Origin: a virus
Taxonomy: Duplodnaviria > Heunggongvirae > Uroviricota > Caudoviricetes
Virus record (IMG/VR): IMGVR_UViG_3300029705_006930
DNA length: 64,000 nt
Strand: one strand, 5' to 3'
A program made the translations under genes and the position numbers. The notes below the pieces were generated by a model, which ran no database searches, was not told the origin of the DNA, and worked only from the letters and a program-made list of their open reading frames with translations. This document shows positions 110 through 28,499 of the stretch, piece by piece (within the stretch, counting starts at the first letter, position 1; the number at the start of each line of letters is the position of its first letter).

Positions 110-1411
110 CTATATCTCATTTTCAATCTCCTCATCTTCATCGTTATATCGTATCGGACTACCTACGGGAAGCATCTCTAAAAATGCTGCTCCAGGCAAC
201 CAATATTTACTTCCATCATTTGTTCTTTTTGCAACTGAAAAATGTATGTGTGCTATGCGTCCTAAATAATCATCTCTGTGTTCCCAAAATTCTTTGCGTT
301 CTTCATCGCTATATCCAAGAGGCAGCACGACGTTGCTACCTTTATAATCAACTATAAAACTCTGCAGTATATCTTCATTTTCTTTTTTTGTGTAATCAAC
401 TATCATCAAATCTGCTTCATGCATTTGTCTTAGGTATAAGAAACTTTCACTGTTCTGTCGGTATTTATATAAGTCATAATCAAGATTAACTAAAATTCCT
501 GCGTATCCTTTTTCTTTGGCTACTCTGAATGCTTTTAAAATATTTCCTCTGTAACGTCCATTAAATAAAATCGGGGCAAGTTGTATATGTTCGGTAGGTG
601 TAAAATTCGTCTCTAAAAATGTTCGTCGGTCTTTATATATGTTTTTACATGTCTTACGGTTAAATTCTTTCAAAGATAATATGTCATAGATATAAAATAT
701 AATGTCACTTTTATCGCGCTCTGGCAGTCGGACTATCCATCGCTCTTTCATTCGGCGGTCATAAGGGGAGAGGTCTTTTGCATCCTCACCTTTATAAACA
801 AGTTCGCCATCAAATACCACTTCATCAAACGGCAAGTCATTAAATTCCTGCAAGAGTTCATCGAAGCCCTCAAGGACAATGCCGAAGCGTGTATACATTC
901 TTGCTTCGCCACATTCTTTGATAACAGCGCAGCGGGTGCCATTGTACCAACCGGAAACTGTGAACTGTCGCTGACGCACATAGTCTTCGTTACCATAGTA
1001 CAGCCCCGGCATCATCAATGGGATTTCATAAACAGTTCCCGCGCCATATACTGTATTGACCTGTTTGGCTGAAACATTTATTTCAAGGTCTCTCAGCACC
1101 GCATCAATCAAAAAGTCGTGGAGCTCAGCGGGGTAGAGGGTAAGAGAACCATGTATCTTTGCCACAGCTTTTTTATTACCCGCCCCCATATATGTCAGAT
1201 ATTCAAGCAGGTCATCACCTTCGCCTGTCACAAACGGCACAACGTCTTCGGCTGTAATTTCGGACGGCGCCCATTTATCAAAGATAAGGAAACGGCTTAA
1301 CCCAAGACGCGTTTTCCCAAACTGATACAATAAAAAGTCTGTCCACTTGGTATTTGTTGCATTACGGCGCAATATGCGTATTTTTTCATCATAAGATGTT
1401 GTGGCCGCCAA
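110..1411 (-). CDS. ATP-dependent ligase-like nucleotidyltransferase, probably catalytically altered paralog
   Basis: 433-aa ORF. Ligase motifs III (FDGELVY), IIIa (FYIYDIL), IV-like (AGILVN) and V-like (MIVDYTKK) present. Motif I reads SGWYNGTR where the intact ligase at 55427 reads SQKLNGFH, so the adenylated Lys is replaced by Trp. Confidence 0.5.
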   Translation of the reverse strand: MAATTSYDEKIRILRRNATNTKWTDFLLYQFGKTRLGLSRFLIFDKWAPSEITAEDVVPFVTGEGDDLLEYLTYMGAGNKKAVAKIHGSLTLYPAELHDFLIDAVLRDLEINVSAKQVNTVYGAGTVYEIPLMMPGLYYGNEDYVRQRQFTVSGWYNGTRCAVIKECGEARMYTRFGIVLEGFDELLQEFNDLPFDEVVFDGELVYKGEDAKDLSPYDRRMKERWIVRLPERDKSDIIFYIYDILSLKEFNRKTCKNIYKDRRTFLETNFTPTEHIQLAPILFNGRYRGNILKAFRVAKEKGYAGILVNLDYDLYKYRQNSESFLYLRQMHEADLMIVDYTKKENEDILQSFIVDYKGSNVVLPLGYSDEERKEFWEHRDDYLGRIAHIHFSVAKRTNDGSKYWLPGAAFLEMLPVGSPIRYNDEDEEIENEI

Positions 1412-3442: not shown

Positions 3443-3599
3443 AGGTGCCTCCTTGTTTGGATTTTTGTTTCCTCTTTTATTGTCTATATTATACCATGAG
3501 AGGGGCTCTTTGATAACGGGGTTTTTGAAAAAACCAAAGAACTTTTTTAAATTTTTTGTGGCGCTTTATATATGTTAATGTATATAAGGAAAGGTTGAT

Positions 3600-4240
3600 G
3601 CGGTTGTTGCGGGGCAGTGTGATTTGGCGCAAAATTAGGCGATTTTTAGGGTGTTTGCAATTGTGTAAGGTCTGGTGTTGGAAATTTGGAAAGGTGTCTT
3701 AATGCCTGAATTTGAGGCTCTGGTGGGGTTATTCTATCACAGTGCTGACGCACTGTGGCGTCGCTGTGCTCCTTTATCTTATCAACGATGAAATGTTTGT
3801 TATTATGTTGCGCGAGAGAGGGTGTGGGGCGCGAAATTTGGGGGCCGGAGAGGTGGGAGGCGCGGTTTTGGGGCGAAATTGGGGCCCGGGTGGCCGGGGC
3901 TAAAATGGGCGTTTCCGGGGGTGTTTTGAGGGGTGTTTGGATAAGTTGCACAAAAATAGAAAAGCCACAGCCGGCTCTGTATGGGGCTAGCTGTGGTTCT
4001 TGTTGTTTATGGGCGTGATTTTGTTGTTTTTATAGTGTTTTGTGGCAAAAATGGTGAAAAAATGTGTAAAAAGGCGCGAAAATGCGTCAAAATGTGTGAT
4101 TTTTGATGATTTTTGGGTGGATTTGGTGTGGAATCAGGGCGAAATGGTGTGGAATGTTGTGTTTGGAGGGTGTTGTGGGGGTGAAAAGTGGACAAATATT
4201 GCTTTTTATGAGCCGAGAGTGAGATATAGCGACGCGTAGC
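3600..4240. repeat. G+T-skewed repeat-rich non-coding region with GCGAAAT(T)-GGGG direct repeats and many G4-G5 runs
   Basis: Top strand nearly C-free over long stretches. Repeats GCGCGAAATTTGGGGGCCGG (~3830), GGCGAAATTGGGGCCCGG (~3871), GGGCGAAATGGTGTGG (~4137), GCGCGAAAATGCG (~4075). ORFs inside are low-complexity. Confidence 0.4.
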
Positions 4241-5286: not shown

Positions 5287-6053
5287 TTCAGGTTATCAAA
5301 AAACATATAAATTATGTACAATTGTTGTAAAATATGGATAAATAAACCATTTTAAACTTTTTGGTAATATTTTTGAGTTTTCATTCAATATATATGCGAC
5401 AGCTAATAGCGGTTAGCGGTTAGGGTGTTAAGCCTTGCCCGCTTGACCGCTTTTTGTCTGTCTGTTTTGCTATGCTTAATTTGTAAGTATAGGACAGGAC
5501 AACCTACCAAGTAGGGACAGCCCAAACGCACAATGTTAGCGTGTTTTGGTTGAAAAAATTTCGGTTTTTTCTTACCTATTGATTGTGTCCCTTTAAAAAA
5601 GGACAGCGGTTCACTCCGCAAGCAAGCCGTCGAGAGATAGTAGATGTTGACACCCTCTTATAAACTGCAAGTAAGGTAGTAAAACAAAAGCCGTAAACGG
5701 CTTGGCTCTTTAAGGTGCCGTTTAGCTAACGGATAAGCGGAAATTGTTCAAAAAAATAATTTTTGTTTGTGAGCGGTTCATTGTGAATATCCAAGGATGT
5801 ACACAACCAAAATGAATTGCCGTCATTACATCTTAGGATGTAAAGGTGGTTACGCAAACGAACAAAAACGAAATTTTCAACAAGAGTATGTGAGAATGTT
5901 TACGATATTTCCAAAGCCGACAGTGAAATGATATATCTGTCGGCTTTTCTTGTAAGCGAATAAGCTCAATAAAAAGTTTGTTCTCTTACAAGATTGTACA
6001 CTCGGTACAGTCTCATTGTAAACATACGCTACATATTCCAAGGAGTAACAATT

Positions 6054-6920
6054 ATGAAACTTAACGAAAAGAAAAACGAAATTTTGTCCGCTATTTCCGC
6101 ACTTAACAAGTTGCTTGTAAACAACGAAAGCAAAAAAGCCGATATCGACAAGGCTCTTGAAAACATCCAGAGCGAAATCAAAGCCTACAATGCCGAAAGA
6201 ACAAGGCTCACTTTTGTTGGGTTGGCTCAGACTGATGAACCTGTTAAAAACGCAATCATTCAGTTGAATTTTGACATCATCAAACTGAAAACAAACAAAG
6301 ACAAGGACACAGATAAAGTGTCATATGAACTTGTAAATGCGAAAAAACAAATCGAATTGCTTGAATTTTCAAAGTATCTCGGTAAAGCAAGTTTTGCAGA
6401 CGAAAACTGGAAATACAAAGTGGAAAAATTCAATCAGCTTATCACATTCAAAGCGGTAAAAGATTTGAATGGCGATATGAACACAATCGCAAAAAGTTTC
6501 TACATCAGCAAACTTGCTGAAAGTGTTGATTTGGGCAAAACACCAACATCAAACACACAGGTTCTCAAACAGTTGCAGACTGTTGTGGACGCAATCATTC
6601 ACGAAAACAAAAGCGAGAATGATGACACAAACAAATTCAAAGTACTGTCTCACGATGTTGCATACATCGTAAAATTGATGTGTAAACGTGCCGACAGCGG
6701 AAAAATCGTAATGCCAAAAGTTTCCTCAATGCACACATTGGTGATGGATGTACTTCACCGTATTGTATGCGACCTCGATTACAAAATCGAATATTCCAAG
6801 AAAAAGGAAGAAGAAACTGCACAGGCTGAAGCCGAAAATGAAATCGAAGCAGCTCAGGAAGAACCAAAAGCTGTAGATGAAAATGCTGAAGAAAAAACAG
6901 CAAAACCAAAAGCGAAATAA
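6054..6920 (+). CDS. hypothetical protein with Lys/Glu/Ala-rich C-terminal tail
   Basis: AAGGAG RBS 8 nt upstream. 288 aa with coiled-coil-like body and KKKEEETAQAEAENEIEAAQEEPKAVDENAEEKTAKPKAK tail. Confidence 0.5.
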   Translation: MKLNEKKNEILSAISALNKLLVNNESKKADIDKALENIQSEIKAYNAERTRLTFVGLAQTDEPVKNAIIQLNFDIIKLKTNKDKDTDKVSYELVNAKKQIELLEFSKYLGKASFADENWKYKVEKFNQLITFKAVKDLNGDMNTIAKSFYISKLAESVDLGKTPTSNTQVLKQLQTVVDAIIHENKSENDDTNKFKVLSHDVAYIVKLMCKRADSGKIVMPKVSSMHTLVMDVLHRIVCDLDYKIEYSKKKEEETAQAEAENEIEAAQEEPKAVDENAEEKTAKPKAK

Positions 6921-11866: not shown

Positions 11867-11952
11867 AGGAGAATACATATGAAAAAGATTTTTTAATTTT
11901 TTAAAAAAAGCTATTGACAAATTGATATGTAAAGTGTATTATGTAGTTGAAA

Positions 11953-12080
11953 TAACATACAGCTCATCTTTTTGAGACTGCTTTATTTTTTACAATAATA
12001 ACATACAAATCATCTTTTGTAGCTTTTAATCCTTGATTAAGGAAATATTTTTTTTAAGCAAATAACACACAAATCATCTG
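11953..12080 (+). promoter_or_regulatory. three direct copies of the ~20-nt motif ATAACA(T/C)ACA(A/G)(A/C)TCATCT(TTT); same motif recurs at 39955-40031
   Basis: Copies at 11953-11974, 11998-12018, 12062-12080 in a 230-bp AT-rich gap upstream of the 12099 small ORF and the Ubl/E1/JAB cassette. Confidence 0.4.
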
Positions 12081-12098: not shown

Positions 12099-12224
12099 AT
12101 GTTACGTATTGTTAATGATAGGGGACACCTCCTCGCATATTGCGGAAACAAATTTCTTGTTTCGGCAGACAACGAGCGCGAAATGCAAAAAGAACTTGCA
12201 GAGCTCGGTTACACAATGACATAA
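12099..12224 (+). CDS. small hypothetical protein (41 aa)
   Basis: AAAAGGAGAAATTGCA RBS; MLRIVNDRGHLLAYCGNKFLVSADNEREMQKELAELGYTMT. Not in ORF track because below 60 aa. Confidence 0.35.
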   Translation: MLRIVNDRGHLLAYCGNKFLVSADNEREMQKELAELGYTMT

Positions 12225-12280
12225 AGGCAAGCCGGCCTTTATATATACAAACACTATTTTTTATAAAAGGAGATTTTAAA

Positions 12281-12727
12281 ATGGCAAAACTTAATCTTAC
12301 AGCAAATGTGCTGTCCCTTGAATCCGCACTTAAACTCGAAGATATCAAAAACGCAATGCGTTGGTGTCCAGATGCTCTCACAGTTATGGACGAAAAAGGC
12401 GAAGAAGAACTCTTCTCTGTTGCTGCAGGTACTTCAAAAGGTTATATCTCACCATACGGCATCACATTTGCTGCTGCAACAGTTCGTGGTGGTAAAGCTT
12501 GCTACACACGCGAAGTTGCACCAGGCACAGAAATGAAAGATATTGCTGAAGTTGTGCTCGCTGAATATGACAAACCAAAAGCATATCTTGAAGTTGTTGA
12601 AGCTCAGGTTGCTGAAGCTCTCGCAAAAGTTGCTGAACGTAGAACAGCTATTATGGCTGAACTTGCTGGCGAATGCGAATGTCCAGACTGCACACCAGAC
12701 TGTCCAACAGCACAGGGCGAAGAATAA
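12281..12727 (+). CDS. hypothetical protein, first gene of the Ubl/E1/JAB cassette (PRTRC protein E position)
   Basis: AAAAGGAGATTTTAAA RBS at internal ATG of ORF 12140..12727. Codon usage markedly more biased and GC-richer than neighbours. C-terminal CECPDCTPDC Cys cluster. Confidence 0.5.
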   Translation: MAKLNLTANVLSLESALKLEDIKNAMRWCPDALTVMDEKGEEELFSVAAGTSKGYISPYGITFAAATVRGGKACYTREVAPGTEMKDIAEVVLAEYDKPKAYLEVVEAQVAEALAKVAERRTAIMAELAGECECPDCTPDCPTAQGEE

Positions 12728-12850
12728 TCTTCGCCCAACCTAAACAAACTTATCCGCAATTTAACCCAATATTTTCCATTAACATTAACAAACTTTTAAA
12801 CCGAAATCGTTAACAAACAAACTTAAACACATAAAAGGAGATTAAATATT

Positions 12851-13078
12851 ATGCTTAGAATTTATGTTGGTACAAACACAAACCGTACAGCTTACACACT
12901 TTCCCCAGAAACAACCCTCAGAGCAGCTTTTGAAACTGCAGGCGTGAACTATGAAATGGGTACCGCAACTCTTGATGGTTCCACACTTCAGCCGGGCGAC
13001 CTTGACAAGTCTTTTGCAGACTTCGGCATCACAGGTACAGCTTACCTCCTGAGCATTGTTAAAGCAAACAACGCTTAA
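12851..13078 (+). CDS. small beta-grasp (ThiS/MoaD/ubiquitin-like) protein candidate
   Basis: 75 aa; MLRIYVGTN...TLDGSTLQPGDLDKSFADFGI pattern typical of ThiS/MoaD-type beta-grasp proteins. Ends ...SIVKANNA with no terminal GG. Strong RBS; high-expression codon bias. Confidence 0.45.
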   Translation: MLRIYVGTNTNRTAYTLSPETTLRAAFETAGVNYEMGTATLDGSTLQPGDLDKSFADFGITGTAYLLSIVKANNA

Positions 13079-13094
13079 TTGATTTTACCTATAG

Positions 13095-13116
13095 GGGCGG
13101 GAGCAATCCTGCCCCA
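13095..13116 (+). promoter_or_regulatory. GC-rich hairpin between Ubl-like gene and downstream genes (possible attenuator)
   Basis: GGGGCGGGAG-CAATC-CTGCCCC stem-loop 17 nt after stop, followed by a weak A/T tract. Confidence 0.3.
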
Positions 13117-13139
13117 ATCTTTAAAGAGAGGAGCTCAGT

Positions 13140-14540
13140 ATGGCACACACATTTAAAAAATGGATGATAAAAGCCATTCCATATGACAACTTGTTTGACA
13201 TATCGGTGGACTTTGAGAATCCATTCCCGACCGATAATCGTCGCGATGCTACACTCGCGGCTGCATTTCACTGTTTGATTAAAGACAGAATTCCAGAGGG
13301 GGTTAATCGCATTGTAGTGCGTGATATCCACTCATATGACTGCAACGTGAGAGACATTTTTGACTATTATGAGGTTGAAAATGGTTTCAAAAGTTGTATT
13401 TTTTACTACGCAGATTGGGACAATGTGAATCTGCAGAGCAAAATTACATTGCCAAATGAATGGGAAGCTCAGGAAATTGCAAGCAAATTTACTGGATGTT
13501 ATGTTACAAATCACGTATCAAAACAATTGATGGTTATCTTTATTCCGAGCAACTATAACCTTGAAACTTGGCATAGACTTGGTGCATTGTTACCAAAATA
13601 TCCAGTGCTCGAGGATATGTGGGCAGCAAAACCACTTACCGAAGATGAACTCAAGATGTTGAAATCACTGTCAACAGACGGTGTAGATTTTGACACATAT
13701 ATAAAAGCGTGGATTGCGACACTCGACCTGCGCACATCCGCAATCAAAAAAATGTTCAACAAATTCATTATTGATAACATCGAGGAACAGATACGCAATG
13801 CCGAAGATAGACGTAGAAGCCTTGAAAACAATATCACAGACTATGCTGCGAGACTGGCAAGGCTGTATAGCGACCTTGACGGTGTTATTGAAATGATAAA
13901 CCGTCTTATGATAGGTGATGACACTGTTGAAGAAAAAGAAAAGAGACTTATCGAATTCTTGTTAACAAACAAAAATGTTGAGCCAATCAGACGTCGCAAT
14001 GACCGCGTTGAATTCAATGTTCACGCAGCAATTGACTGTTGGGATAACGATATGTTCTCATCTTATATCAATAATCACAACAGTTTATTGTATCGCCATA
14101 CAAGCAGATATTCATATGACCAGTTGAAACGTTTTTATGAGCAGGCATTGTTTGCCGGTCGCTTTAAAATTCAGGGCATTGCTAAATTTGAAATTGCAGC
14201 AACAGGTAATGTGAGACCAATTTCAAAAAATGGGCATTGGCCATCAGCTGAAATCGAAAACTGTATTCCAAATACACATGTGGATAAATTCACTTGTATT
14301 GGTAATCACAGACGTATGCTGGATGATGCTGCAAAAATTCGTGACTATGAACAGGCAATTTTGATTGCTATTCAGATTACACAGTCAGTTAACTGGTCGG
14401 ATGGTGCAGTTATGAATCACTTTATTCCTGAAGTGTTGCACTGTGAACGTCCAATTCTTACAGACAGAACAGGCAATACATACACTGTTGCACAGGTAAT
14501 AAGCATACTTGATGCCGAAATAAAGGAGGTTGAAAAATAA
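13140..14540 (+). CDS. hypothetical 466-aa protein of Ubl/E1/JAB cassette (PRTRC protein B position; possible E2-like or adaptor)
   Basis: AAAGAGAGGAGCTCAGT RBS. Stop overlaps start of JAB gene (ATAATG). No motif recognised by eye. Confidence 0.5.
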   Translation: MAHTFKKWMIKAIPYDNLFDISVDFENPFPTDNRRDATLAAAFHCLIKDRIPEGVNRIVVRDIHSYDCNVRDIFDYYEVENGFKSCIFYYADWDNVNLQSKITLPNEWEAQEIASKFTGCYVTNHVSKQLMVIFIPSNYNLETWHRLGALLPKYPVLEDMWAAKPLTEDELKMLKSLSTDGVDFDTYIKAWIATLDLRTSAIKKMFNKFIIDNIEEQIRNAEDRRRSLENNITDYAARLARLYSDLDGVIEMINRLMIGDDTVEEKEKRLIEFLLTNKNVEPIRRRNDRVEFNVHAAIDCWDNDMFSSYINNHNSLLYRHTSRYSYDQLKRFYEQALFAGRFKIQGIAKFEIAATGNVRPISKNGHWPSAEIENCIPNTHVDKFTCIGNHRRMLDDAAKIRDYEQAILIAIQITQSVNWSDGAVMNHFIPEVLHCERPILTDRTGNTYTVAQVISILDAEIKEVEK

Positions 14541-15475
14541 TGAAACCAATAAGATTGACCGATGATGTAAAAGCGGCTATTCTTGATAAATTTGCAAAAC
14601 AGCTGAGCACGGTTGTACGTGCTTCAACTATTACATTCACACATACGCCAACAGTGGTAAGCACACCGTTAGGCAAAGATGAAAAAGTGCTGATTACTTA
14701 TACAGCAGAAGCATTCCGCAAGCAGCAGATGCTTATTCAGAGTTTTGACAGTGAAGTGGCTTGGCACGGTGTTGTTGAACGTGAAGATGCAAAGCATTTT
14801 ATTATTACAGATATCGTAGTATATCCCCAGACTGTTACCGGCTCAACTGTTGAGATGGACGAAGACAAATATGCTCTTTGGACAATTCAGTTCGGTCGTG
14901 AACACGGCGAAGAAACATTCCAGAAACTGCGTATGCAGGGACATAGCCACGTGAATATGGAATGTTTTGCAAGTGGTACAGACTCTAAACACCAGGATGA
15001 CATCTTGGCAACAACTGACCCAAATGGGTTCTATATTTTCATTATTGCCAATAAAAAAGGCAAATTCTGGAGCACTATTTTCGACCTCGAAGCAAATGTT
15101 CAGTATGAAAATGCTGACATCGAAATCGAGTATGAGGAAGATGAGTACGATGAATTTGTAAGTGCAGCAGAAAGTGTGGTTGTAAAAAAGACTTATACAC
15201 CACCTTACAACTATGGCAATGGCTATCACAACAACGGAGCAGGGTATTCATACGGGGCAAGCGCTTATTCTCAGAAGCCACCTCAGACTCCGCCTATGCC
15301 AGTGCTTCCGACAAATACACAGCCAAAAACAAGCACAAACGAAACAAACACAAAGGCAAACACAAACACAAAAAAGGACGATAAATCCATTGAAGAAGAT
15401 ATCACCAATCTTATTCAGATGTCATTGAACGATATGGAATGGGATGAAGTTGGTGGATGGACAAGCAAAATGTAA
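14540..15475 (+). CDS. JAB/MPN (JAMM) metallopeptidase-domain protein with Tyr/Gly/Asn-rich low-complexity C-terminal region
   Basis: HSHVNMECFASGTD matches the JAMM motif H-x-H-x7-S-x2-D, with upstream Glu residues. C-terminal 110 aa low complexity, ending ...NDMEWDEVGGWTSKM. Confidence 0.6.
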   Translation: MKPIRLTDDVKAAILDKFAKQLSTVVRASTITFTHTPTVVSTPLGKDEKVLITYTAEAFRKQQMLIQSFDSEVAWHGVVEREDAKHFIITDIVVYPQTVTGSTVEMDEDKYALWTIQFGREHGEETFQKLRMQGHSHVNMECFASGTDSKHQDDILATTDPNGFYIFIIANKKGKFWSTIFDLEANVQYENADIEIEYEEDEYDEFVSAAESVVVKKTYTPPYNYGNGYHNNGAGYSYGASAYSQKPPQTPPMPVLPTNTQPKTSTNETNTKANTNTKKDDKSIEEDITNLIQMSLNDMEWDEVGGWTSKM

Positions 15476-15484
15476 GGAGAAATT

Positions 15485-16174
15485 ATGGACTTAAGTAAAT
15501 CACTTGACTGGTTTAATCCAGACAGCGTTTCGGAACGCATACATATTATCGGATGCGGTAGTGTAGGTAGTACAGTTGTGGAACTGTTGGCAAGATTCGG
15601 TCTTACAAAGTTCACTCTGTATGATTTTGACCTTGTTGAACCTCACAATATCGCAAACCAGATGTTCAGAAAAACGGACATTGGTAAAACAAAAGTTGAA
15701 GCATTGCAGCAGATTGTATGTGAAATCAATCCAGAGGCGGGCAAAGATATTAAACTTGAACCAGAAGGTTGGCACGGACAGCAGTTGTCTGGCTATGTAG
15801 TTCTTGCTGTTGATAGCATTGAATTGCGTAAAAAGATTTGTGAAGGTTTGCAGATGAATATCTTTGTTAAAGCTGTGTTTGATTTCCGTACAAGTTTGCT
15901 CAACGCACAGCATTATGCAGCCAATTGGCAGGACAAAAAACATCGTGATGACCTCATTGCAACAATGCAGTTCACCGATGAAGAAGCTGCGGCTGAAAAC
16001 CCAGTATCAGCGTGTGGTGTAACACTTGGTGTCGCACCAACAGTAAGACTGATATGCACACTAGGCGTAAGCAATATGATGAACTTTTTCAGAGAAAAGA
16101 AATTGAAAAAAGTTGTATTGGCAGACGCATTTAATTTTGATGCTGACCCTATGGTATTACCTATGGGTCAATAA
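15485..16174 (+). CDS. ThiF/MoeB/HesA-family E1-like adenylyltransferase
   Basis: IIGCGSVGS Rossmann GxGxxG; YDFDLVEPHNIANQMF (D-x-D...N-x-x-R-Q-like) signature of ThiF/E1; Cys in ENPVSACG. Confidence 0.7.
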   Translation: MDLSKSLDWFNPDSVSERIHIIGCGSVGSTVVELLARFGLTKFTLYDFDLVEPHNIANQMFRKTDIGKTKVEALQQIVCEINPEAGKDIKLEPEGWHGQQLSGYVVLAVDSIELRKKICEGLQMNIFVKAVFDFRTSLLNAQHYAANWQDKKHRDDLIATMQFTDEEAAAENPVSACGVTLGVAPTVRLICTLGVSNMMNFFREKKLKKVVLADAFNFDADPMVLPMGQ

Positions 16175-16198
16175 TACACAATAAGAGAAATGTTTATG

Positions 16199-16500
16199 GT
16201 GAATATTGCACATTGTATGGCAAGCTTTTGCTGTTAGCAGAAGTAAAGAAATGGTAGAGAACATAGAGGCAGGCGCTTAAGGAGCACGCTGAGGTGATTC
16301 CTAAGTACTGCAGCTTCTTGCATCCGACGAGCTCTGAAAAGGTAGGTTTAACAGGAGGATTGGATTACTTACAAGTGAAATTAACCAGTTCAAACCGTAA
16401 AGCTCATCTGAAATTAACGATAAATCCCAGATTTGCATCTCTTTTATCCGGGAATGAAGGGCTTAAAACTATAGCTAGACCATAAACAAGATAGGGAGGA
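16199..16500 (+). ncRNA. candidate structured ncRNA unit A, upstream of RT
   Basis: Non-coding 330-bp gap. Boxes TGAATATTGCACATTGT, TTGCTGTTAGCAG (16228), GAAATGGTAGAGA (16248), AACAGGAGGATTGG (16350), CCAGTTCA (16385) are shared with units at 17873 and 18398. Confidence 0.35.
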
Positions 16501-16504: not shown

Positions 16505-17860
16505 ATGGTTTATATCACATATCCAGCACCTAACAAATTTCATCAGATTACATTTGAAGAAATGATGTCGGGCAATGTTAATACAGATAAATTAAGAATT
16601 TTAGGCGGACATAATACGCTTACTTTGCATCTTAACGATGTACCTGCAAACTTAAAAGGTCAGACTTCTGTACGCAAAATGATTGCAGATTTGCAGTATT
16701 TTGTAGGTGTATATTATGACACACTGATGCCACAGATAAAAGAATTTGAGAAGCTTTCAGATGCTCAGCGTCGCAGCGTCAAACAGCGTGACAAGATTGA
16801 AAATTATTTTGAACAGATGGGCGCAACTGCAAATGATGAAGACTTGCAGAAAATCACTGAACAGGTAGATGCGCTGCAGTGTGAAGTTGCAGAACAGCAG
16901 TATAAATATGCTTACTATACATTCGATTTGCGCAAAAGTTCAGCGCCGGAACACATTCCATTGTGGCGACTGCCAAAAGAATACAGACGTACAATCAATG
17001 CTCCGAACATACATCTTAAAAATGCGCTATATGAACTTAAAGAACTGTTTGAAAATATGATGATACGTACATATCATACTGCATCATTTGCGTATGTTAA
17101 ACATCGTGGAACTTTGGATGCTGTAAAACGTCATCAGAGCTGGGAAAGCAAATGGTTTGCAAAGTTTGACTTTTCAGATTTCTTTGGTAGCACAACAATT
17201 GACTTTGTTATGCAACAGTTCTCTCAAATATATCCGTTTAATATGATTTGTGCATATAAAGATGGTAAAGAAGCTCTTTATAAAGCATTGCAGTTGTGTT
17301 TTTTGGACGGTGGACTTCCACAGGGCACACCTATTAGTCCTCTCATCACAAACATAATGATGATACCATTTGACCACGCAATGTCAAAAGCTCTTAAAGA
17401 ATTTAAATATCCAAACAAACACGGTAGTGAACGTTTTGTGTATACAAGATATGCTGATGACCTGCTTATCAGTTGCCGTGTGGATTTTAAAGTGGAAATT
17501 ATTCAGGCATTTATTCTGGAAACTTTAAAATCAATGAATGCGCCTTTTAGCCTTAACGTTAAGAAAACTCGTTACGGTTCTAGTGCAGGTAGCAACTGGA
17601 ATCTTGGGGTGATGCTTAACAAAGACAATAAAATTACAATCGGTGCAGAAAACAAGCGCAGACTTAAAGCTTCTTTGAATTCATTTATCCTTGATATGAA
17701 GAATGAAAAACCTTGGGATATTTCTATGGTGTATAGACTCAGAGGTCAGATTTCTTATTATCGTAATGTGGAAAGGGAAGCAACAAATAACATCATTGCA
17801 GCGATGAACACAAAATATGGTGTTGATGCAGAAGCAATGATGAAATCTATTATAAGTTAA
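16505..17860 (+). CDS. reverse transcriptase (retron/DGR/UG-Abi clade)
   Basis: GATAGGGAGG RBS; motif 1-2 region YYTFDLRKSS...RRTINAPNIHLKNALYEL; motif A FDFSDFFGS (DFFxS type); motif B' LPQGTPISPLITNI; motif C YTRYADDLLIS. ~130-aa N-terminal extension. Confidence 0.8.
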   Translation: MVYITYPAPNKFHQITFEEMMSGNVNTDKLRILGGHNTLTLHLNDVPANLKGQTSVRKMIADLQYFVGVYYDTLMPQIKEFEKLSDAQRRSVKQRDKIENYFEQMGATANDEDLQKITEQVDALQCEVAEQQYKYAYYTFDLRKSSAPEHIPLWRLPKEYRRTINAPNIHLKNALYELKELFENMMIRTYHTASFAYVKHRGTLDAVKRHQSWESKWFAKFDFSDFFGSTTIDFVMQQFSQIYPFNMICAYKDGKEALYKALQLCFLDGGLPQGTPISPLITNIMMIPFDHAMSKALKEFKYPNKHGSERFVYTRYADDLLISCRVDFKVEIIQAFILETLKSMNAPFSLNVKKTRYGSSAGSNWNLGVMLNKDNKITIGAENKRRLKASLNSFILDMKNEKPWDISMVYRLRGQISYYRNVEREATNNIIAAMNTKYGVDAEAMMKSIIS

Positions 17861-17872
17861 TTTAATTTTTAT

Positions 17873-18150
17873 ATATTGAATATCACAGTCATTGTGAAGT
17901 GTTGATGTTATCGGCACTAACGAAATGGTAAGAAAGTATGGCAGGAAGGCCCGCAGGTTCATGATGAAGACGCGTGCGAGCTTACAGCTCCAGCATAAAA
18001 ATTAGAAATGCTGGTACAATGAAAAGGAAGAAAATCATGAACGAAAGCCATACTTTCCAACATCCACAAAACCACGAATTTAAAACGCTTCATTACTCCG
18101 CGACCCTCCGCCAGGAGGGCCCGGGCGCGGTAAAGCGTCAAATAAATAAT
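17873..18150 (+). ncRNA. candidate structured ncRNA unit B, downstream of RT
   Basis: TATTGAATATCACAGTCATTGT, TTGATGTTATCGGCA, GAAATGGTAAGAAAG (17925) homologous to unit A. Ends with GC-rich compound hairpin CCGCG-ACCCTCCGCCAGGAGGG-CCCGGGCGCGG (18097-18129) and box ATTGAGAATA (18148). Confidence 0.3.
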
Positions 18151-18167
18151 TGAGAATATATAAAAAA

Positions 18168-18350
18168 ACTTTATTGAATATCTTTAAATTTGTACATAAA
18201 TTTAAGAACTGTTGCTGTTAGCAGCAGTGTCAAACGAACAGGATAAATAAAGAAATACAAATTTCTTTATTTAAATAACTTCTTAGCGTCGTAAGGCGCG
18301 ATGCTCCGACATCGCTCATGACGACGCCAAAGTTATTGAGAATAAAGTTA
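18168..18350 (+). repeat. degenerate partial copy of the ncRNA unit
   Basis: TATTGAATATC (18171), TTGCTGTTAGCAGCAG (18210), GC-rich hairpin GCGTCGT...ACGACGC (18285-18326), box ATTGAGAATA (18334). Confidence 0.25.
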
Positions 18351-18397
18351 AAAAAATAATAAGAAAAATAAACAGTGTATATTTGCATAGCAAAGCT

Positions 18398-18760
18398 ATT
18401 GATGTAATCAGTAGTACAGAAATGGTAGGAAAGATTACACGGGACGGTGTCGCCGGTGAGGAGCCACCTCCTTTGCAAACCCCTGCAATATTTCTAAAAC
18501 CTAATTAAAACTATGTCCGAATGGTCAAACATAACAGGAGGACTGAGAAACATCACCTGAAGGATACCAACTGAACCCCCAGTTCAGATGACACGACAGC
18601 TGGAGAAATCTAGACCCATGGGATGGTGATTCAACATTAAATTACAATTCAGACTGTTTATTGCTTTATAGTTTTTGCCAAGCTACGAAAACTCCAAATA
18701 ATGAGTAGTGTGTGACATAAAAGCCAAGCCTCGTCAACTCCCTTTCGGGGCTTGGTAAAG
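18398..18760 (+). ncRNA. candidate structured ncRNA unit C
   Basis: TTGATGTAATCAG...GAAATGGTAGGAAAG (18420), AACAGGAGGACTG (18532), CTGAAC-CCCCA-GTTCAG hairpin (18570-18590), terminal hairpin GCCAAGCC...GGCTTGG (18722-18757). Confidence 0.3.
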
Positions 18761-24908: not shown

Positions 24909-25262
24909 ATGCAAGAGGTTAGATTTTTACTTGATTTTTATGTGCCTTTTAACAGGTGGAAAATAGCTTTGATGAATGTTCCCGAAGAACAATATAAAAT
25001 CAATCCAGGTTTAGGAATATCTCTTACACAGTTTGCATATGATGAACACTTGTCCGAAGGTGGTAATCATTATGAATTTGCGTGTCAGGTGCCAAAGCGA
25101 TTTTATAGATTGCTTAGATTACATCCGGATTGGGAGCCTGTAGATGCTGTAGAACTTGCGAGAATGCTTGAAGGTTATATTAAAGCTGATTGGTCTATTG
25201 AATATAATCCTCCAATTATTACATATGAAACAAGCTTTGAGGAACTGATGGGAGGAGTTTAG
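24909..25262 (+). CDS. C-terminal-motif family member 1 (tail ...TYETSFEELMGGV)
   Basis: AAAGGGAGATTTATATG RBS; conserved C-terminal acidic/hydrophobic motif followed by GG. Confidence 0.5.
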   Translation: MQEVRFLLDFYVPFNRWKIALMNVPEEQYKINPGLGISLTQFAYDEHLSEGGNHYEFACQVPKRFYRLLRLHPDWEPVDAVELARMLEGYIKADWSIEYNPPIITYETSFEELMGGV

Positions 25263-25263
25263 T

Positions 25264-25590
25264 ATGGAAGAAATGAGTTCAACCAGACTAGCCATTACTC
25301 CGCTGATTGACAAAACACGATATGGATGCGGAGTTGTAGGTGCAGGATATCCATGCGAAATTACATCAGATGCCGTTGAATTTATTAGTAGCATAGCAAC
25401 AGAAACATATACGACGGGAACAGGCCGTGTGGATTATACAATATCACATCCAGCATCCATATATAATGATGTCGTCTCTGAAGGAAGATGTTTGACACAA
25501 GCAGTGTTAGATTATATTTTTAATCATGTATTAATCCAAGGTATTGATTATGAAATGAATTTTGAAGAACTTATGAAAGGAGAGCCATAA
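25264..25590 (+). CDS. C-terminal-motif family member 2 (tail ...DYEMNFEELMKGEP)
   Basis: GGGAGGAGTTTAGT RBS; abuts upstream stop. Confidence 0.5.
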   Translation: MEEMSSTRLAITPLIDKTRYGCGVVGAGYPCEITSDAVEFISSIATETYTTGTGRVDYTISHPASIYNDVVSEGRCLTQAVLDYIFNHVLIQGIDYEMNFEELMKGEP

Positions 25591-26057
25591 TGGAGATACA
25601 GAATTTTTGTGAATATTTTAATATTCCAACCAACGCAGATATCTCTGTACAACGTGCTGATGACCCATTTGAACGAATGCAGATAGTAGCAGAATATTTT
25701 TCAGGTGGTGGTTGTAAATGTGAACATATAATTAATTTCGATATGGCTCTTTTATATGCTCAACCAAATGAGGCAGTTTACTCTATTTTATATATTGCTA
25801 ATAATATGATACTGAATATTCCAAAACAGTTATTTGATGCAATATTTATTGAATCAAATAATTTTGAGACTGCATCAAATATACCACATTATATAGCTGT
25901 ATTCTCACAATCATCAATGAATTTAGCACAACGAAAAACACAAGTTGAGGAATTGATAAAAAAACATCAGGAGATATTGCATAATCATCATATACCAGAA
26001 ATTATATATGACTTGGATTTTGATAACTTAATGATAGGAGGTAATGCATCATGTTAG
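25590..26057 (+). CDS. C-terminal-motif family member 3 (tail ...IYDLDFDNLMIGGNASC)
   Basis: Start overlaps upstream stop (TAATGG). Confidence 0.5.
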   Translation: MEIQNFCEYFNIPTNADISVQRADDPFERMQIVAEYFSGGGCKCEHIINFDMALLYAQPNEAVYSILYIANNMILNIPKQLFDAIFIESNNFETASNIPHYIAVFSQSSMNLAQRKTQVEELIKKHQEILHNHHIPEIIYDLDFDNLMIGGNASC

Positions 26058-26473
26058 ATTTTTACGAGCATTTTGGATTATCTGAAGATGTTCGGGTAAC
26101 AGCTGAATCTGTAGATGATGAACTACGTATAGTTTGTTGGGATAATGAGACAAAATATATTGTTCCGTTTGATATGATTATCTTGCCAGAGTGGTGGGGT
26201 GATGAAAAAAATGCATATATCCTGACTAAAAATGATACATTTATTCGTATGCCTCATGGTTTGGCTGTAAATGTTTTTGAAAGAGCGCGTGGTGGTTATT
26301 GGCATTATGACAATGATAAATGGGTAGCTGTGTCCTCATGTTATTTAGGTTATGAAAGAATTCAGAAGAAAGCATCTATTTTGCTGCGAAATATAAATAA
26401 TATTTTAATGGAAGAAGATAGTCATAGAAGCTCAATATCTTATGATGTTGAGTTTGATGCATTATTTAAATAA
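26051..26473 (+). CDS. C-terminal-motif family member 4 (tail ...SYDVEFDALFK)
   Basis: Overlaps upstream gene by 7 nt. Confidence 0.5.
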   Translation: MLDFYEHFGLSEDVRVTAESVDDELRIVCWDNETKYIVPFDMIILPEWWGDEKNAYILTKNDTFIRMPHGLAVNVFERARGGYWHYDNDKWVAVSSCYLGYERIQKKASILLRNINNILMEEDSHRSSISYDVEFDALFK

Positions 26474-26483
26474 AGGAGAACAA

Positions 26484-26813
26484 ATGAATATAACATTTTA
26501 TATACATAGTACAGGGCGTCAATATTTTTTAACTGCGCTGGGCGGTGCAGCCGTGCGTATCAGTCAAAATATGTATACAAGATTACAAAGACATTCTGTG
26601 GATGCAGGCGATGAAATGGTTAACCGAAGAGTTCGCACCAAACGTATTTTAAATATTGAAGATTTAAATTTCGAGAACAATTATAACTACAATACATATC
26701 GTTTGTATGATTTCTTAGAAAGAAATTACAGGTCATGGCGTAACTACACCACAATCACCTCAGAAATTGTTTATGACGAAAATGCTCTATCTTGGGACGC
26801 TCTTTTTCAGTAA
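26484..26813 (+). CDS. C-terminal-motif family member 5 (tail ...YDENALSWDALFQ)
   Basis: AAAGGAGAACAA RBS before internal ATG; motif more degenerate. Confidence 0.4.
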   Translation: MNITFYIHSTGRQYFLTALGGAAVRISQNMYTRLQRHSVDAGDEMVNRRVRTKRILNIEDLNFENNYNYNTYRLYDFLERNYRSWRNYTTITSEIVYDENALSWDALFQ

Positions 26814-26825
26814 AGGAGATAATAT

Positions 26826-27185
26826 ATGAACGAACATAAACGGATTTTACCAGAAGAGGGTGCCTATGAGGAACGATTTGCTGTTTATCCAAACCCTAAA
26901 GAACCAACTACATATGTGATGGATGTAAGGTCGCTGACAAGATACAATCCAGCGAGCAGTTTGGTTATTGATGATGCAGTTTTGGAATCACTCAGTATAT
27001 TGTCTTACCACAGTTTTGAAGCTGTACGTCCAGATACAACAGTATATTGCATGTTTATAAAAGATGCAGAAAAAGACAATTTTTTAAAAGACCCTGTGCA
27101 TTGGTTGCTACAAACACAAGTTATGAATACTCCAAGAATGGAATATGAGTTGGATTTTGACACACTGATAGGAGTGATAAAATGA
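26826..27185 (+). CDS. C-terminal-motif family member 6 (tail ...EYELDFDTLIGVIK)
   Basis: AAAGGAGATAATAT RBS. Confidence 0.5.
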   Translation: MNEHKRILPEEGAYEERFAVYPNPKEPTTYVMDVRSLTRYNPASSLVIDDAVLESLSILSYHSFEAVRPDTTVYCMFIKDAEKDNFLKDPVHWLLQTQVMNTPRMEYELDFDTLIGVIK

Positions 27186-27646: not shown

Positions 27647-27658
27647 GGAGATGATTTT

Positions 27659-28144: not shown

Positions 28145-28499
28145 TTTATTAACACAAAAGGATGTACCTAAAGGAGCATATCGAGTATTGATAGTATGTG
28201 ATGCCACTATAGGTTTTGTGTGTAAGCATTATGCATTGATAGAAAATGAAAACAAAACTTGTCAATATATTATCGAGTGTCAAATACAAGGGGATTTGGA
28301 AAAGTTTTATAGTGCCACATATCAAGGCTTGAAGATGGAATTCTATCGGGTTACTACAGTTGAACAGCCTGCAATAACCGAGGATTCACTTGAAATTCAG
28401 AGGATGATAGATTTCTTATTTCAGGTATATCACATAAATTTAAAGTACGAAAATATGTGTTATGAAATTGATTTTGACCAGTTGATGGGAGGAATATAA
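28131..28499 (+). CDS. C-terminal-motif family member 9 (tail ...CYEIDFDQLMGGI)
   Basis: Overlaps upstream gene. Confidence 0.5.
   Translation: MTAIDLLTQKDVPKGAYRVLIVCDATIGFVCKHYALIENENKTCQYIIECQIQGDLEKFYSATYQGLKMEFYRVTTVEQPAITEDSLEIQRMIDFLFQVYHINLKYENMCYEIDFDQLMGGI

What the first reader, a model, noticed from the sequence alone, without database searches (positions are those of the whole stretch)
12099..16174. Phage-borne ubiquitin-like conjugation cassette (Ubl, 466-aa unknown, JAB/MPN peptidase, ThiF-type E1) in PRTRC-like gene order
Five co-directional, translationally coupled genes: a 149-aa protein, a 75-aa beta-grasp candidate, a 466-aa protein of unknown fold, a JAMM-motif JAB protein (HSHVNMECFASGTD) and a minimal ThiF/MoeB E1 (GCGSVGS, DFDLVEPHNIANQ). 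The sizes and order (E? / small Ubl / large B / JAB / ThiF) match my recollection of the poorly characterised PRTRC (ParB-related, ThiF-related) cassettes. They also match Ubl-E1-JAB operons now linked to phage defence and counter-defence (Bil/Bub-type). Here the Ubl lacks a terminal Gly-Gly (ends ...SIVKANNA). No E2-like UBC motif is obvious; the 466-aa protein may hold that role. No ParB partner is present. The first two genes show much stronger codon bias than the rest, implying high expression, and a GC hairpin at 13095 may set stoichiometry. Function in a phage is open: virion or tail modification, anti-defence, or cargo defence.
Basis: partly seen in the sequence, partly recalled or inferred. 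Interest (0 to 1): 0.8.

Follow-up and report, generated by a model that had tools for sequence, protein, structure and literature searches.

The report
Phage ubiquitin-like system coupled to retron
A family of uncultivated gut phages carries its own ubiquitin-like protein-tagging machinery (tag, E1, E2-like protein, removal protease), always next to a retron-type reverse transcriptase and its structured RNAs, a combination that I could not find described anywhere.

Summary

In 108 of 109 related loci with enough DNA, the cassette is followed by a retron-type reverse transcriptase. In the reverse direction, 67 of 68 RT-anchored loci carry the cassette upstream. Flanking genes are otherwise not conserved. 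About 300-nt RNA elements sit beside the RT, three of them in this window. They show retron msr-msd hallmarks: terminal inverted repeats, two opposing G residues and covarying hairpins.

Best reading: one phage module in which an RT-msDNA complex is coupled to Ubl conjugation. The targets and the biological role are unknown.

The parts
11914..11942 (+). sigma-70-like promoter candidate (TTGACA-17-TATTAT) in front of the module
   Evidence: 11 of 12 consensus match. It lies after the stop of the preceding gene at 11866. This is a consensus match only; function is inferred.
11952..12079 (+). three copies of the 18-nt motif ATAACAYACANNTCATCT (11952, 11998, 12062), a possible operator or leader element
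   Evidence: 7 copies in the window against 0.24 expected. Other copies sit at 39955, 40011, 38370(-) and 3786(-).
12281..12727 (+). p148: abundant partner protein of unknown fold, always first gene of the module
   Evidence: Present together with the 466-aa gene in 114 of 115 loci with enough upstream DNA. Duplicated together with the Ubl gene in L109 and L053. No Pfam, PDB, PHROG or NCBIfam match. Strong codon bias.
12851..13078 (+). 75-aa ubiquitin-like beta-grasp protein (Ubl) with a conserved C-terminal ...VVKA[DN]NA tail
13094..13115 (+). GC-rich hairpin between the Ubl and E2-like genes (attenuator or 3'-end stabiliser candidate)
   Evidence: 9-bp stem, -21.8 kcal/mol for the region, z=-2.4. 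Analogous hairpins of unrelated sequence occur after the Ubl gene in about half of 23 diverged loci (mean -13.6 against -9.1 shuffled).
13140..14540 (+). 466-aa protein: N-terminal alpha/beta domain, coiled coil (about 209-258), C-terminal UBC/RWD-like domain with invariant H380 and C386 (candidate E2)
14540..15475 (+). 311-aa JAB/MPN+ (JAMM) metallopeptidase with an N-terminal extension and a low-complexity C-terminal tail
   Evidence: Invariant E72, H135, H137, S145 and D148. The profile hits Rpn11 at E=1.5e-4. 49 of 56 family members hit PADLOC JAB models, best 3e-7.
15485..16174 (+). 229-aa single-domain ThiF/UBA5-type E1 adenylation enzyme with conserved Cys177
   Evidence: PF00899 at 74 bits. 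Nearest models are the Cap2 E1 domain and 6A-MBL cap2_3. Nearest PDB chains are UBA5, Uba1, MccB and Cap2. C177 in PVSAC177G is 97% conserved. Its equivalence to UBA5 C250 is judged by eye against UBA5 and ThiF sequence recalled from memory.
16191..16488 (+). ncRNA-1: retron msr-msd-like element directly upstream of the RT (a1 TGTTTATGGT 16191-16200, G 16201, P1, P2, a2 ACCATAAACA 16479-16488)
   Evidence: CM hit at 46 bits. The MFE fold closes with a1/a2. The inverted repeat with opposing Gs is shown.
16505..17860 (+). 451-aa retron-type reverse transcriptase with a family-specific N-terminal domain of about 140 aa
   Evidence: NCBIfam retron St85 at 159.5 bits, below the 235 cut-off. PADLOC RT_II-A at 140 bits, and all top hits are retron RT types. 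YADD is present. The RT follows the cassette in 108 of 109 loci.
17866..18166 (+). ncRNA-2: second msr-msd-like element (12-nt a1/a2)
   Evidence: CM hit at 41.7 bits. Fold z=-4.7 with a closing a1/a2 stem, P1 and P2. It is paralogous to ncRNA-1 and ncRNA-3.
18190..18245 (+). weak, possibly truncated fourth copy of the 5' RNA module
   Evidence: CM hit at 26.6 bits, E=0.005. No terminal repeat was found for it.
18367..18662 (+). ncRNA-3: third msr-msd-like element (10-nt a1/a2)
   Evidence: CM hit at 47.4 bits. nhmmer similarity to ncRNA-1. Fold z=-2.5 with a closing stem, P1 and P2.

Best explanation
The finding is the protein-conjugation half of a larger conserved phage module: p148, Ubl, E2-like protein, JAB peptidase, minimal E1, retron-type ncRNA(s) and a retron-type RT. 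It is probably transcribed early from a host-type promoter.

Most likely mechanism:
1. The homodimer-type E1 adenylates the C-terminal carboxylate of the 75-aa Ubl. The mature end is probably ...KA(D/N)NA, an Ala rather than Gly-Gly. The E1 then takes the Ubl as a thioester on Cys177.
2. The Ubl passes to Cys386 of the UBC/RWD-like domain of the 466-aa protein. That protein's N-terminal domain and coiled coil choose the target, with no separate E3, as proposed for Bil.
3. The JAMM peptidase trims Ubl precursors that carry C-terminal extensions and/or removes conjugates.
4. The RT copies part of each roughly 300-nt ncRNA into msDNA, primed from the conserved G next to the a1 stem. By analogy with every characterised retron, the RT-msDNA complex binds and gates, or scaffolds, the associated proteins. 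Here those proteins are the conjugation machinery.
5. p148 and the Ubl are made in excess over the enzymes, through codon bias and a hairpin after the Ubl gene.

Shown: folds, motifs, gene linkage and RNA architecture. Inferred: thioester chemistry, msDNA synthesis, RT-Ubl coupling and targets. I favour a core infection function, such as tagging host or phage proteins for take-over or counter-defence, because the module is vertically conserved across a deeply diverged phage group.

For: E1: PF00899 at 74 bits, with UBA5, Uba1, MccB and Cap2 as the nearest structures. The GxGxxG and DNxxxR motifs are present, and Cys177 is 97% conserved at what I judge to be the UBA5 C250 position.

JAB: invariant JAMM motif, Rpn11 profile hit, and PADLOC JAB hits in 49 of 56 members.

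Gene order Ubl-E2-JAB-E1 equals the Bil order.

Linkage: 104 of 127 loci have all six genes, 99 of them in the same order. 108 of 109 loci with enough downstream DNA have ThiF+RT. In 26 representatives below 60% JAB identity, only these families are shared; the next family is in 15 of 26 and the rest in 6 or fewer. 67 of 68 RT-anchored viral loci have p466+JAB+ThiF upstream. In L075 and L101 the RT sits between JAB and ThiF.

Retron features: all top RT hits are retron models. All 142 of 142 CM hits are on the module strand. P2 shows changes on both sides in 7 of 7 pairs. A P1 hairpin is present in 49 of 50 elements. The a1/a2 repeats average 9.1 nt against 6.9 in the null, and the element median is 296 nt. 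G follows a1 in 53 of 55 elements and G precedes a2 in nearly all. This matches the 'two opposing G residues' of retron msr-msd (PMC7736814).

Expression: promoter-like site, codon bias, and a recurrent hairpin after the Ubl gene.
Against: - No biochemical data exist, and no cultured phage carries the module. Only one unannotated GenBank phage record matches.
- The Ubl has no Gly-Gly.
- The E1 family has Asn where E1s have the Arg of NxxRQ.
- The RT scores below the curated cut-off of the nearest retron family. Its NAxxH and VTG motifs are variants, DAVKRH and NLG.
- One RT with several ncRNAs is not typical of retrons.
- All loci come from one broad phage lineage, so conserved synteny could partly reflect shared ancestry rather than function.
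- One locus (L086) has the cassette and an ncRNA but no RT within 9 kb.
- No target is identified.
Confidence: 0.6

Rival explanations
1. Same machinery, different role. The module is defence cargo: a new retron-type system in which RT-msDNA is the sensor and the Ubl pathway is the effector. The phage uses it against competing phages or other mobile elements, for example by tagging a rival's virion proteins as Bil does.
For: Every characterised retron and every characterised bacterial Ubl-E1-E2-JAB operon (Bil, Bub, CBASS Cap2/3) is linked to antiphage immunity. The E1 and JAB are closest to the Cap2, Cap3 and 6A-MBL profiles. The module lies in a hypervariable early region.
Against: Among the retrieved relatives, which were found by searching for module genes, the module keeps its gene order down to 20-45% protein identity, unlike sporadic defence cargo. 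p148 and the Ubl carry highly-expressed-gene codon usage. No toxin-like effector is present.
Confidence: 0.2
2. The Ubl cassette and the retron are functionally independent neighbours. They are kept together only by shared ancestry and by co-transcription in the early region.
For: All loci derive from related gut phages. Unrelated genes such as DUF6273 can be inserted between ThiF and the RT, with gaps up to 7 kb. L086 lacks an RT within 9 kb.
Against: Flanks turn over almost completely while the six genes stay together. The association is reciprocal, at 67 of 68. The RT is found inside the cassette in L075 and L101. ncRNA elements lie inside the cassette in L078, representative of the L078-L085 group. 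L205 keeps the RT next to p148 and Ubl after losing the enzymes.
Confidence: 0.12
3. The E1 and the small beta-grasp protein do carboxylate-activation chemistry other than protein tagging. Options are sulfur-carrier chemistry (ThiS/ThiF, MoaD/MoeB, CysO type) or MccB-like C-terminal Asn modification after removal of the last Ala.
For: The best whole-protein NCBIfam hits of the E1 are ThiF models (75 bits, all below cut-off), and MccB is among the nearest PDB chains. The tail ...DNA has an Asn at position -2. JAB plus ThiS/MoaD-like operons exist in sulfur assimilation.
Against: No Gly-Gly, and no rhodanese, ThiG/H, MoaE, cysteine-synthase or transporter genes nearby. A large partner protein with a UBC/RWD-like domain and an invariant Cys is always present. 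The Ubl is structurally closest to a conjugated Ubl, BilA. The position after Asn is nearly invariably Ala and is the natural stop in most homologs.
Confidence: 0.04
4. It is a PRTRC (ParB-related, ThiF-related cassette) system.
For: There is a superficial resemblance in gene sizes and order. A sub-threshold hit of the E1 to TIGR03736 scores 31 bits.
Against: The TIGR03736 cut-off is 144.75 bits. No PRTRC A, B, C, D or E profile hit appears at E<=0.1 for any window protein or for 35 Ubl and 56 JAB family members. No NCBIfam or Pfam ParB hit among the eight proteins scanned around the cassette.
Confidence: 0.02

Closest known systems
Bil (bacterial ISG15-like) systems, type I/II BilABCD
   Different: The E1 is a 229-aa single adenylation domain, not IAD-AAD-CYS. 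The E2-like protein is 466 aa with extra domains. The Ubl ends in Ala, not Gly. No PADLOC or PDB sequence-profile match to any defence model (which would include a Bil model, if the library holds one) was found for the Ubl or E2. The system is encoded by phages rather than defence islands. It is linked to p148 and a retron.
Type II CBASS Cap2 (E2-E1 fusion) / Cap3 (JAB), and the 6A-MBL family
   Same: The E1 domain and the JAB are closest in sequence to these: PADLOC E1-E2 at 61 bits, NCBIfam 6A-MBL cap2_3 at 67 bits, and PADLOC JAB in 49 of 56 family members. The E1 is a minimal homodimer type.
   Different: There is no CD-NTase. A dedicated beta-grasp Ubl is the likely substrate. E2 and E1 are separate genes with the JAB between them.
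Bub (6E/DUF6527) systems
   Different: Bub uses fusions (Ubl-E2, JAB-E1 or E2-E1), a DUF6527 serine protease and oxyester chemistry without catalytic cysteines. Here the genes are separate, conserved Cys residues are present in both the E1 and the E2-like protein, and no Pfam family of any kind, DUF6527 included, was detected in the proteins scanned.
Retrons (nearest: St85/type II-A RT clade)
   Same: The RT is most similar to retron RTs. A contiguous ncRNA has a1/a2 repeats, two opposing Gs and 5' msr-like hairpins, with a2 abutting the RT ribosome-binding site (PMC7736814). Associated genes sit in one operon-like unit, like the tripartite retron systems.
   Different: The associated genes are a Ubl-conjugation pathway, which is not among the 13 retron types of Mestre et al. 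and not found in literature searches. There are several ncRNA copies per RT. The ncRNA is about 300 nt. The RT has an extra N-terminal domain and variant NAxxH and VTG motifs. The system is a conserved feature of phage genomes.
UBA5-UFM1 / ThiF-ThiS / MoeB-MoaD minimal E1 pairs
   Same: A single adenylation domain, a cysteine at the end of the crossover loop, and a small beta-grasp partner.
   Different: There is no Gly-Gly, no sulfur-transfer or cofactor genes, and it is coupled to a JAB and an E2-like protein in a virus.
PRTRC system
   Same: A ThiF-family protein sits next to small and mid-sized uncharacterised proteins on a mobile element.
   Different: None of the PRTRC profiles match above threshold, and no NCBIfam or Pfam ParB hit among the eight proteins scanned around the cassette.

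Membership tests
Bil (BilABCD) | Beta-grasp Ubl (BilA) | tested here: met
Bil (BilABCD) | Ubl C-terminal Gly exposed by the DUB for adenylation | tested here: not met
   The family tail is ...VVKA[DN]NA followed by optional extra residues, with no Gly.
Bil (BilABCD) | Small single-domain E2 (BilB/CEHH) with a catalytic Cys | tested here: inconclusive
Bil (BilABCD) | JAB/JAMM deubiquitinase (BilC) | tested here: met
   Invariant JAMM motif, an Rpn11 profile hit and PADLOC JAB hits.
Bil (BilABCD) | [quoted passage not shown] | tested here: not met
   The protein is 229 aa with one ThiF domain spanning residues 17-204. The Bil E1 chain of entry 8tyz is not among the PDB hits at E<=0.001.
Bil (BilABCD) | Gene order Ubl-E2-DUB-E1 | tested here: met
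   The order is as stated in PMC10557695.
Bub (6E) | Ubl-E2 and JAB-E1 (or E2-E1) fusions plus a DUF6527 serine protease | tested here: not met
   The genes are separate, and no Pfam hit other than ThiF and RVT_1 was found in the module.
Bub (6E) | E1 and E2 lacking catalytic cysteines (oxyester chemistry) | tested here: not met
   Cys177 is conserved at 97% in the E1 and Cys386 is invariant in the E2-like protein. The chemistry itself is not testable here.
PRTRC | Matches to TIGR03735-03741 (PRTRC A, ThiF, B, C, D, E) above cut-off | tested here: not met
   Only TIGR03736 hits, at 31 bits against a 144.75-bit cut-off. Nothing matches the other proteins or 91 family members.
PRTRC | Associated ParB-family protein | tested here: not met
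   No NCBIfam or Pfam ParB hit among the eight proteins scanned around the cassette, and none among the called genes with precomputed Pfam hits in related loci L001-L005.
Type II CBASS (Cap2/Cap3) | CD-NTase whose C-terminus is conjugated, plus an E2-E1 fusion | tested here: not met
   Only the E1 domain of the Cap2 models matches (model positions about 300-370 of 579). No nucleotidyltransferase profile hit was found in the module.
ThiS/ThiF and MoaD/MoeB sulfur carriers | C-terminal Gly-Gly carrier plus sulfur-transfer or cofactor synthase partners; equivalog-level E1 score | tested here: not met
   There is no Gly-Gly. The ThiF and MoeB models score 37-75 bits against cut-offs of 152-376. 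No partner genes are present.
E1 (ThiF/UBA) superfamily | Rossmann GxGxxG, the DNxxxR Mg/ATP motif, and a catalytic Cys in or at the end of the crossover loop | tested here: met
   GCGSVGS, VD(N/S)IELR and PVSAC177G are conserved. The Arg of NxxRQ is replaced by Asn.
Retron | RT belongs to the retron RT clade | tested here: inconclusive
   The best NCBIfam and PADLOC hits are all retron RTs, with St85 at 159.5 bits. That is below the curated 235-bit cut-off.
Retron | Contiguous ncRNA whose ends (a1/a2) are inverted repeats | tested here: met
   10-12-nt repeats bound each of the three window elements. Across loci the mean is 9.1 nt against 6.9 in the null, and the span median is 296 nt.
Retron | Two opposing G residues at the inner end of the a1/a2 stem (branching G) | tested here: met
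   G immediately follows a1 in 53 of 55 elements, against 19% G in the background. G precedes a2 in nearly all. The feature is as described in PMC7736814.
Retron | One to three short msr stem-loops after the branching G | tested here: met
   P1 is present in 49 of 50 elements (MFE -5.2 against -1.7 shuffled). P2 has 7 of 7 pairs with changes on both sides and 91.6% of cells paired.
Retron | NAxxH (region X) and VTG (region Y) motifs in the RT | tested here: inconclusive
   The family has IDAVKRH, with H210 at least 90% conserved and one extra residue, and NLG368 with G invariant. The most conserved residues are kept, but the motifs are not canonical.
Retron | Production of branched msDNA | not testable with these tools
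   This needs RT-dependent RT-DNA detection in cells or in vitro.

The most novel reading that the evidence does not exclude
The retron product is not just a regulator but part of the chemistry or the targeting. The other is that each of the several msDNAs made from the ncRNA array acts as a guide or adaptor that directs the E2-like enzyme to a different target. Either would make this a nucleic-acid-programmed ubiquitin-like tagging system encoded by a virus.
Probability: 0.12. Interest if true: 0.97.

Novelty: new variant of a known kind. Interest (0 to 1): 0.85.

Why it matters
Complete Ubl-E1-E2-DUB pathways in prokaryotes have so far been described as bacterial antiphage defences (Bil, Bub, CBASS Cap2/3). 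Here the virus carries such a pathway. At least 102 IMG/VR contigs carry the JAB gene and at least 514 carry a relative of the RT. Their inferred hosts are gut Clostridia, and the module looks like a conserved, highly expressed early function.

Its obligatory partnership with a retron-type RT and an array of msr-msd-like RNAs would define a new retron type with a non-toxin effector module. It would also be the first link between reverse transcription and ubiquitin-like conjugation.

It offers testable entry points to several questions. What are retrons for outside abortive infection? How do minimal E1/E2 pairs choose targets without an E3? How do phages use or subvert Ubl tagging? The compact parts (a 75-aa tag with a non-Gly end, a 229-aa E1, RT plus ncRNA) could also be of interest as tools.

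Tried and rejected
- **DGR instead of retron.** No TR/VR-type repeat pair was found in the window, and the RT has the retron/group-II-type LPQGxPxSP motif. Rejected.
- **PRTRC.** Profile searches were negative.
- **p148 as a second Ubl.** hhalign of p148 against the Ubl profile gives probability 1%. A merged BLAST cluster most likely reflects over-extended or overlapping ORF calls.
- **p148 identity.** Pfam, PDB, PHROG and NCBIfam searches found nothing.
- **p466 sequence-level E2 signal.** The profile against PDB gives only coiled-coil noise. Foldseek-PDB was negative. The afdb50 library was unavailable.
- **Word-based and pattern-based searches with p466 alone.** These found one and zero relatives. 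Only the full HMMER scan revealed the family.
- **Rfam.** No family matches the ncRNAs.
- **nhmmer with the window ncRNAs.** It found no other locus. The elements are recognisable only by structure, through CM R1.
- **The 41-aa ORF at 12099.** It has weak homologs elsewhere in a few loci but not at this position, so it is not part of the module.
- **Family f5 (window 5994-6920).** It is present in 15 of 26 representatives about 7.6 kb upstream. It was treated as phage backbone, not as part of the module.
- **Literature searches.** Queries combining retron with ThiF, JAB or ubiquitin-like, and queries for phage-encoded Ubl pathways, found no description.

Full report
**Context.** The window is part of a large phage genome of about 35% GC with nearly all genes on the + strand. 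It encodes a B-family DNA polymerase, a DnaB-like helicase, two ATP-dependent ligases, ribonucleotide reductase and a sigma-factor-like protein. It has no tRNA genes and no Rfam match at gathering score. The cassette has almost no counterpart in GenBank phage records. One unannotated faecal 'Bacteriophage sp.' record, MT835544, matches.

**The observation.** The five ORFs are at 12281-12727, 12851-13078, 13140-14540, 14540-15475 and 15485-16174.
- The last three are tightly packed, with an ATGA overlap and then a 9-nt gap.
- The first two are followed by 123-nt and 61-nt spacers.
- The reported start at 12099 is a 41-aa ORF that is not conserved at this position.
- A near-consensus sigma-70-like promoter lies at 11914-11942. 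Three copies of an 18-nt motif precede the unit.
- Codon bias of the first two genes is real: Nc 36.2 against 42.8, and G-ending codons 7-9% against 17-19%.
- The GC hairpin at 13094-13115 is real. Sequence-unrelated stable hairpins follow the Ubl gene in about half of 23 diverged relatives. This supports the idea that p148 and the Ubl are made in excess of the enzymes.

**The four conjugation components.**

(i) *E1.* Pfam ThiF scores 74 bits.
- The best NCBIfam and PADLOC hits are ThiF models, the Cap2 E1 domain and 6A-MBL cap2_3, all below curated cut-offs.
- The nearest solved chains are UBA5, Uba1, MccB, Cap2, TcdA and MoeB.
- In 97 family members, GCGSVGS, the VD(N/S)IELR motif and Cys177 in PVSAC177G are conserved. 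By my own comparison with UBA5 and ThiF sequence recalled from memory, this Cys sits at the position of UBA5 C250 and ThiF C184. The protein is therefore a thioester-capable minimal E1.
- The Arg of NxxRQ is Asn.

(ii) *JAB.* Pfam misses it. However, 427 homologs exist, and E72, H135, H137, S145 and D148 are invariant. The family profile aligns to Rpn11 across the MPN core at E=1.5e-4. 49 of 56 members hit PADLOC JAB models.

(iii) *Ubl.* 56 homologs were found.
- AF2 gives pLDDT 93, with secondary structure in the order strand, strand, helix, two short strands, a short helix and a final strand, followed by a flexible tail.
- The family ends in ...VVKADNA (KANNA in the window). Some homologs carry 1-20 extra, unconserved residues after it. 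This is the pattern expected of a modifier whose C-terminus is matured by a peptidase.

(iv) *E2 candidate.* The 466-aa protein had only one relative by word search, but a full HMMER scan found 1052 cluster representatives of 450-500 aa.
- AF2 gives pLDDT 87. It shows an N-terminal alpha/beta domain, a long helix at 209-258 and a C-terminal domain.
- The C-terminal domain runs helix, two strands, a two-helix insert, two strands, a loop, then helices.
- The only invariant residues of the family, H380 and C386 in PNPHxxxxxC, lie in the loop after the beta-meander. By my comparison with canonical E2s, this is where E2s carry HPN...C.
- Foldseek-PDB, the profile search against PDB and hhalign against canonical E2s are negative. 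I rate the E2 assignment at about 0.65.

**What it is not.**
- No PRTRC profile matches the non-E1 proteins or their families, and PRTRC_ThiF scores 31 of the 144.75 bits required.
- PADLOC (2023) and PDB sequence searches give no match of the Ubl or the E2-like protein to any defence-system model or to Bil or Bub chains.
- The E1 lacks the IAD-AAD-CYS architecture that defines BilD.
- It also lacks the fusions, the serine protease and the cysteine-less chemistry that define Bub.
- The gene order Ubl-E2-JAB-E1 is that of Bil. The system therefore works like Bil but is not a member. Its E1 and JAB are nearer in sequence to the Cap2/Cap3 lineage.

**The larger unit.** Contexts of JAB homologs and 127 JAB-anchored loci from IMG/VR and GTDB genomes show a fixed order: p148, Ubl, E2-like, JAB, E1, RT.
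- 104 loci have all six genes, and 99 of them keep this order.
- 108 of 109 loci with at least 4.5 kb downstream have ThiF plus the RT.
- 114 of 115 loci with enough upstream DNA have p466 plus p148.
- The exceptions are informative. The p148-Ubl pair is duplicated in L109 and L053. The RT lies between JAB and ThiF in L075 and L101.
- In 26 representatives below 60% JAB identity, these six are the only widely shared families. The next family is in 15 of 26 and all others in 6 or fewer. The module persists while its surroundings turn over.
- In the reverse direction, at least 514 viral contigs encode a relative of this RT. Of the best 80, 67 of 68 with enough upstream DNA carry p466, JAB and ThiF. 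The 68th keeps p148, the Ubl and a p466 remnant.
- Contigs are 50-150 kb phage genomes or MAG contigs, binned mostly to Clostridia such as Oscillospiraceae, Ruminococcus, Lachnospiraceae and Christensenellaceae.

**The RT and its RNAs.** The 451-aa RT has YADD and LPQGTPISP.
- Its best matches are retron RT models: St85 family at 159.5 bits (cut-off 235), PADLOC RT_II-A at 140 bits, and other retron types after that.
- It has a conserved N-terminal domain of about 140 aa that lies outside the St85 model's match.
- A spacer of about 300 nt precedes the RT in most loci.
- In the window, three paralogous elements of about 300 nt flank the RT, at 16191-16488, 17866-18166 and 18367-18662.
- Each is bounded by a 10-12-nt perfect inverted repeat and folds with that repeat as the closing stem. 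The z-scores are -1.8, -4.7 and -2.5.

Across loci the sequences are unalignable (61 clusters), but the architecture is constant.
- A covariance model of the second hairpin finds 142 matches in 77 sources, all on the module strand. Typically one is upstream of the RT and one to eight are downstream.
- All 7 pairs of that hairpin show changes on both sides, and 91.6% of cells are paired against 75% in shuffles. The caveat is that this alignment was fitted to the model.
- The first hairpin forms in 49 of 50 distinct elements at a fixed offset, with unrelated sequences.
- The terminal repeats average 9.1 nt against 6.9 for mismatched controls. The element median length is 296 nt.
- A G follows a1 in 53 of 55 elements, and a G precedes a2 in nearly all.
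- Inverted repeats at the ends, two opposing G residues and short msr stem-loops are the published signature of retron msr-msd transcripts (PMC7736814).
- In L078, representative of the L078-L085 group where ThiF and the RT abut, such elements lie upstream of p148 and between the Ubl and E2-like genes. The RNAs therefore belong to the module as a whole.
- msDNA synthesis itself cannot be tested here.

**Mechanism and role.**
- The conjugation chemistry is inferred from conserved residues and family knowledge: adenylation, then E1 Cys177, then E2-like Cys386, then the target, with the JAB maturing or reversing.
- The coupling to the retron is inferred from linkage, and from the rule that RT-msDNA complexes bind and control their associated proteins.
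- I favour a core, early-expressed infection function, because the module is maintained down to 20-45% protein identity and its first two genes look highly expressed.
- A defence or competition role (a retron sensor with a Bil-like effector) is the main rival.
- Functional independence of the two halves, sulfur-carrier or MccB-like chemistry, and PRTRC membership are less likely, for the reasons given under rivals.
- Literature searches of the held library found no description of a retron associated with ThiF, JAB or Ubl genes. They also found no phage-encoded complete Ubl pathway.

**Verdict.** The true unit is a conserved Ubl-conjugation plus retron module. I class it as a new variant of known kinds, with high interest.

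Noticed in passing
window 11952-12079, 39955-40028, 38370-38387(-), 3786-3803(-): An 18-nt motif, ATAACAYACANNTCATCT, occurs 7 times against 0.24 expected. It forms clusters of 2-3 copies spaced 46-64 nt in front of the module and in front of the gene block starting near 40.2 kb. It is probably a phage operator or early-promoter element.
   Followed up: partly
window 24909-29530: About a dozen tandem small paralogous genes of 96-161 aa have otherwise diverged. Their products all end in a conserved C-terminal peptide, [IM]-x-Y-[ED]-x-x-F-[ED]-x-L-[MLF]-(G-G/K-G). This could be a shared docking, packaging or recognition tag. The GG partly coincides with the next gene's GGAGG ribosome-binding site.
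   Followed up: no
window 56628-60246: The ribonucleotide reductase large-subunit gene is split into 56628-58085 and 59278-60246. The interruption is a group I intron (Rfam RF00028, sub-threshold at 33 and 24 bits, at 58089-58269 and 59183-59215). It carries an HNH homing-endonuclease ORF at 58424-59182.
   Followed up: partly
window 110-1411(-) and 55427-56749(+): There are two ATP-dependent DNA ligase genes in one phage window, on opposite strands.
   Followed up: no
L109 4987-6481; L053 6599-8148: The p148-Ubl gene pair is tandemly duplicated in some relatives. This suggests the two proteins act as a pair.
   Followed up: no
L078 3992-4301 and 5090-5389 (representative of the L078-L085 group): In the subgroup where ThiF and the RT are 13 nt apart, msr-msd-like elements lie upstream of p148 and between the Ubl and E2-like genes instead of in front of the RT.
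   Followed up: partly
L121 2945-11940: One 12-kb MAG contig holds at least nine copies of the ncRNA 5' module on one strand downstream of a single RT. This suggests arrays of templates interspersed with small genes.
   Followed up: no
L001-L005, e.g. L001 9618-10418: A DUF6273-family gene is often inserted between ThiF and the ncRNA/RT, and a second copy lies upstream of p148.
   Followed up: no
window 16505-16930 (RT residues 1-140): The RT family has its own conserved N-terminal domain (Y3, T5, T38, T40, L63 and F66 nearly invariant) with no Pfam or NCBIfam match. It lies outside the region matched by the retron St85 model.
   Followed up: no
window 3509-3560 and 38318-38369: A 52-nt imperfect inverted repeat (77% complementary) links two intergenic regions that each also carry a minus-strand copy of the 18-nt motif nearby. 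These may be related regulatory regions.
   Followed up: no
window 5994-6920: A 308-aa protein of unknown function is the only flank family shared by many relatives (15 of 26). It always lies about 5-8 kb upstream of the module.
   Followed up: partly
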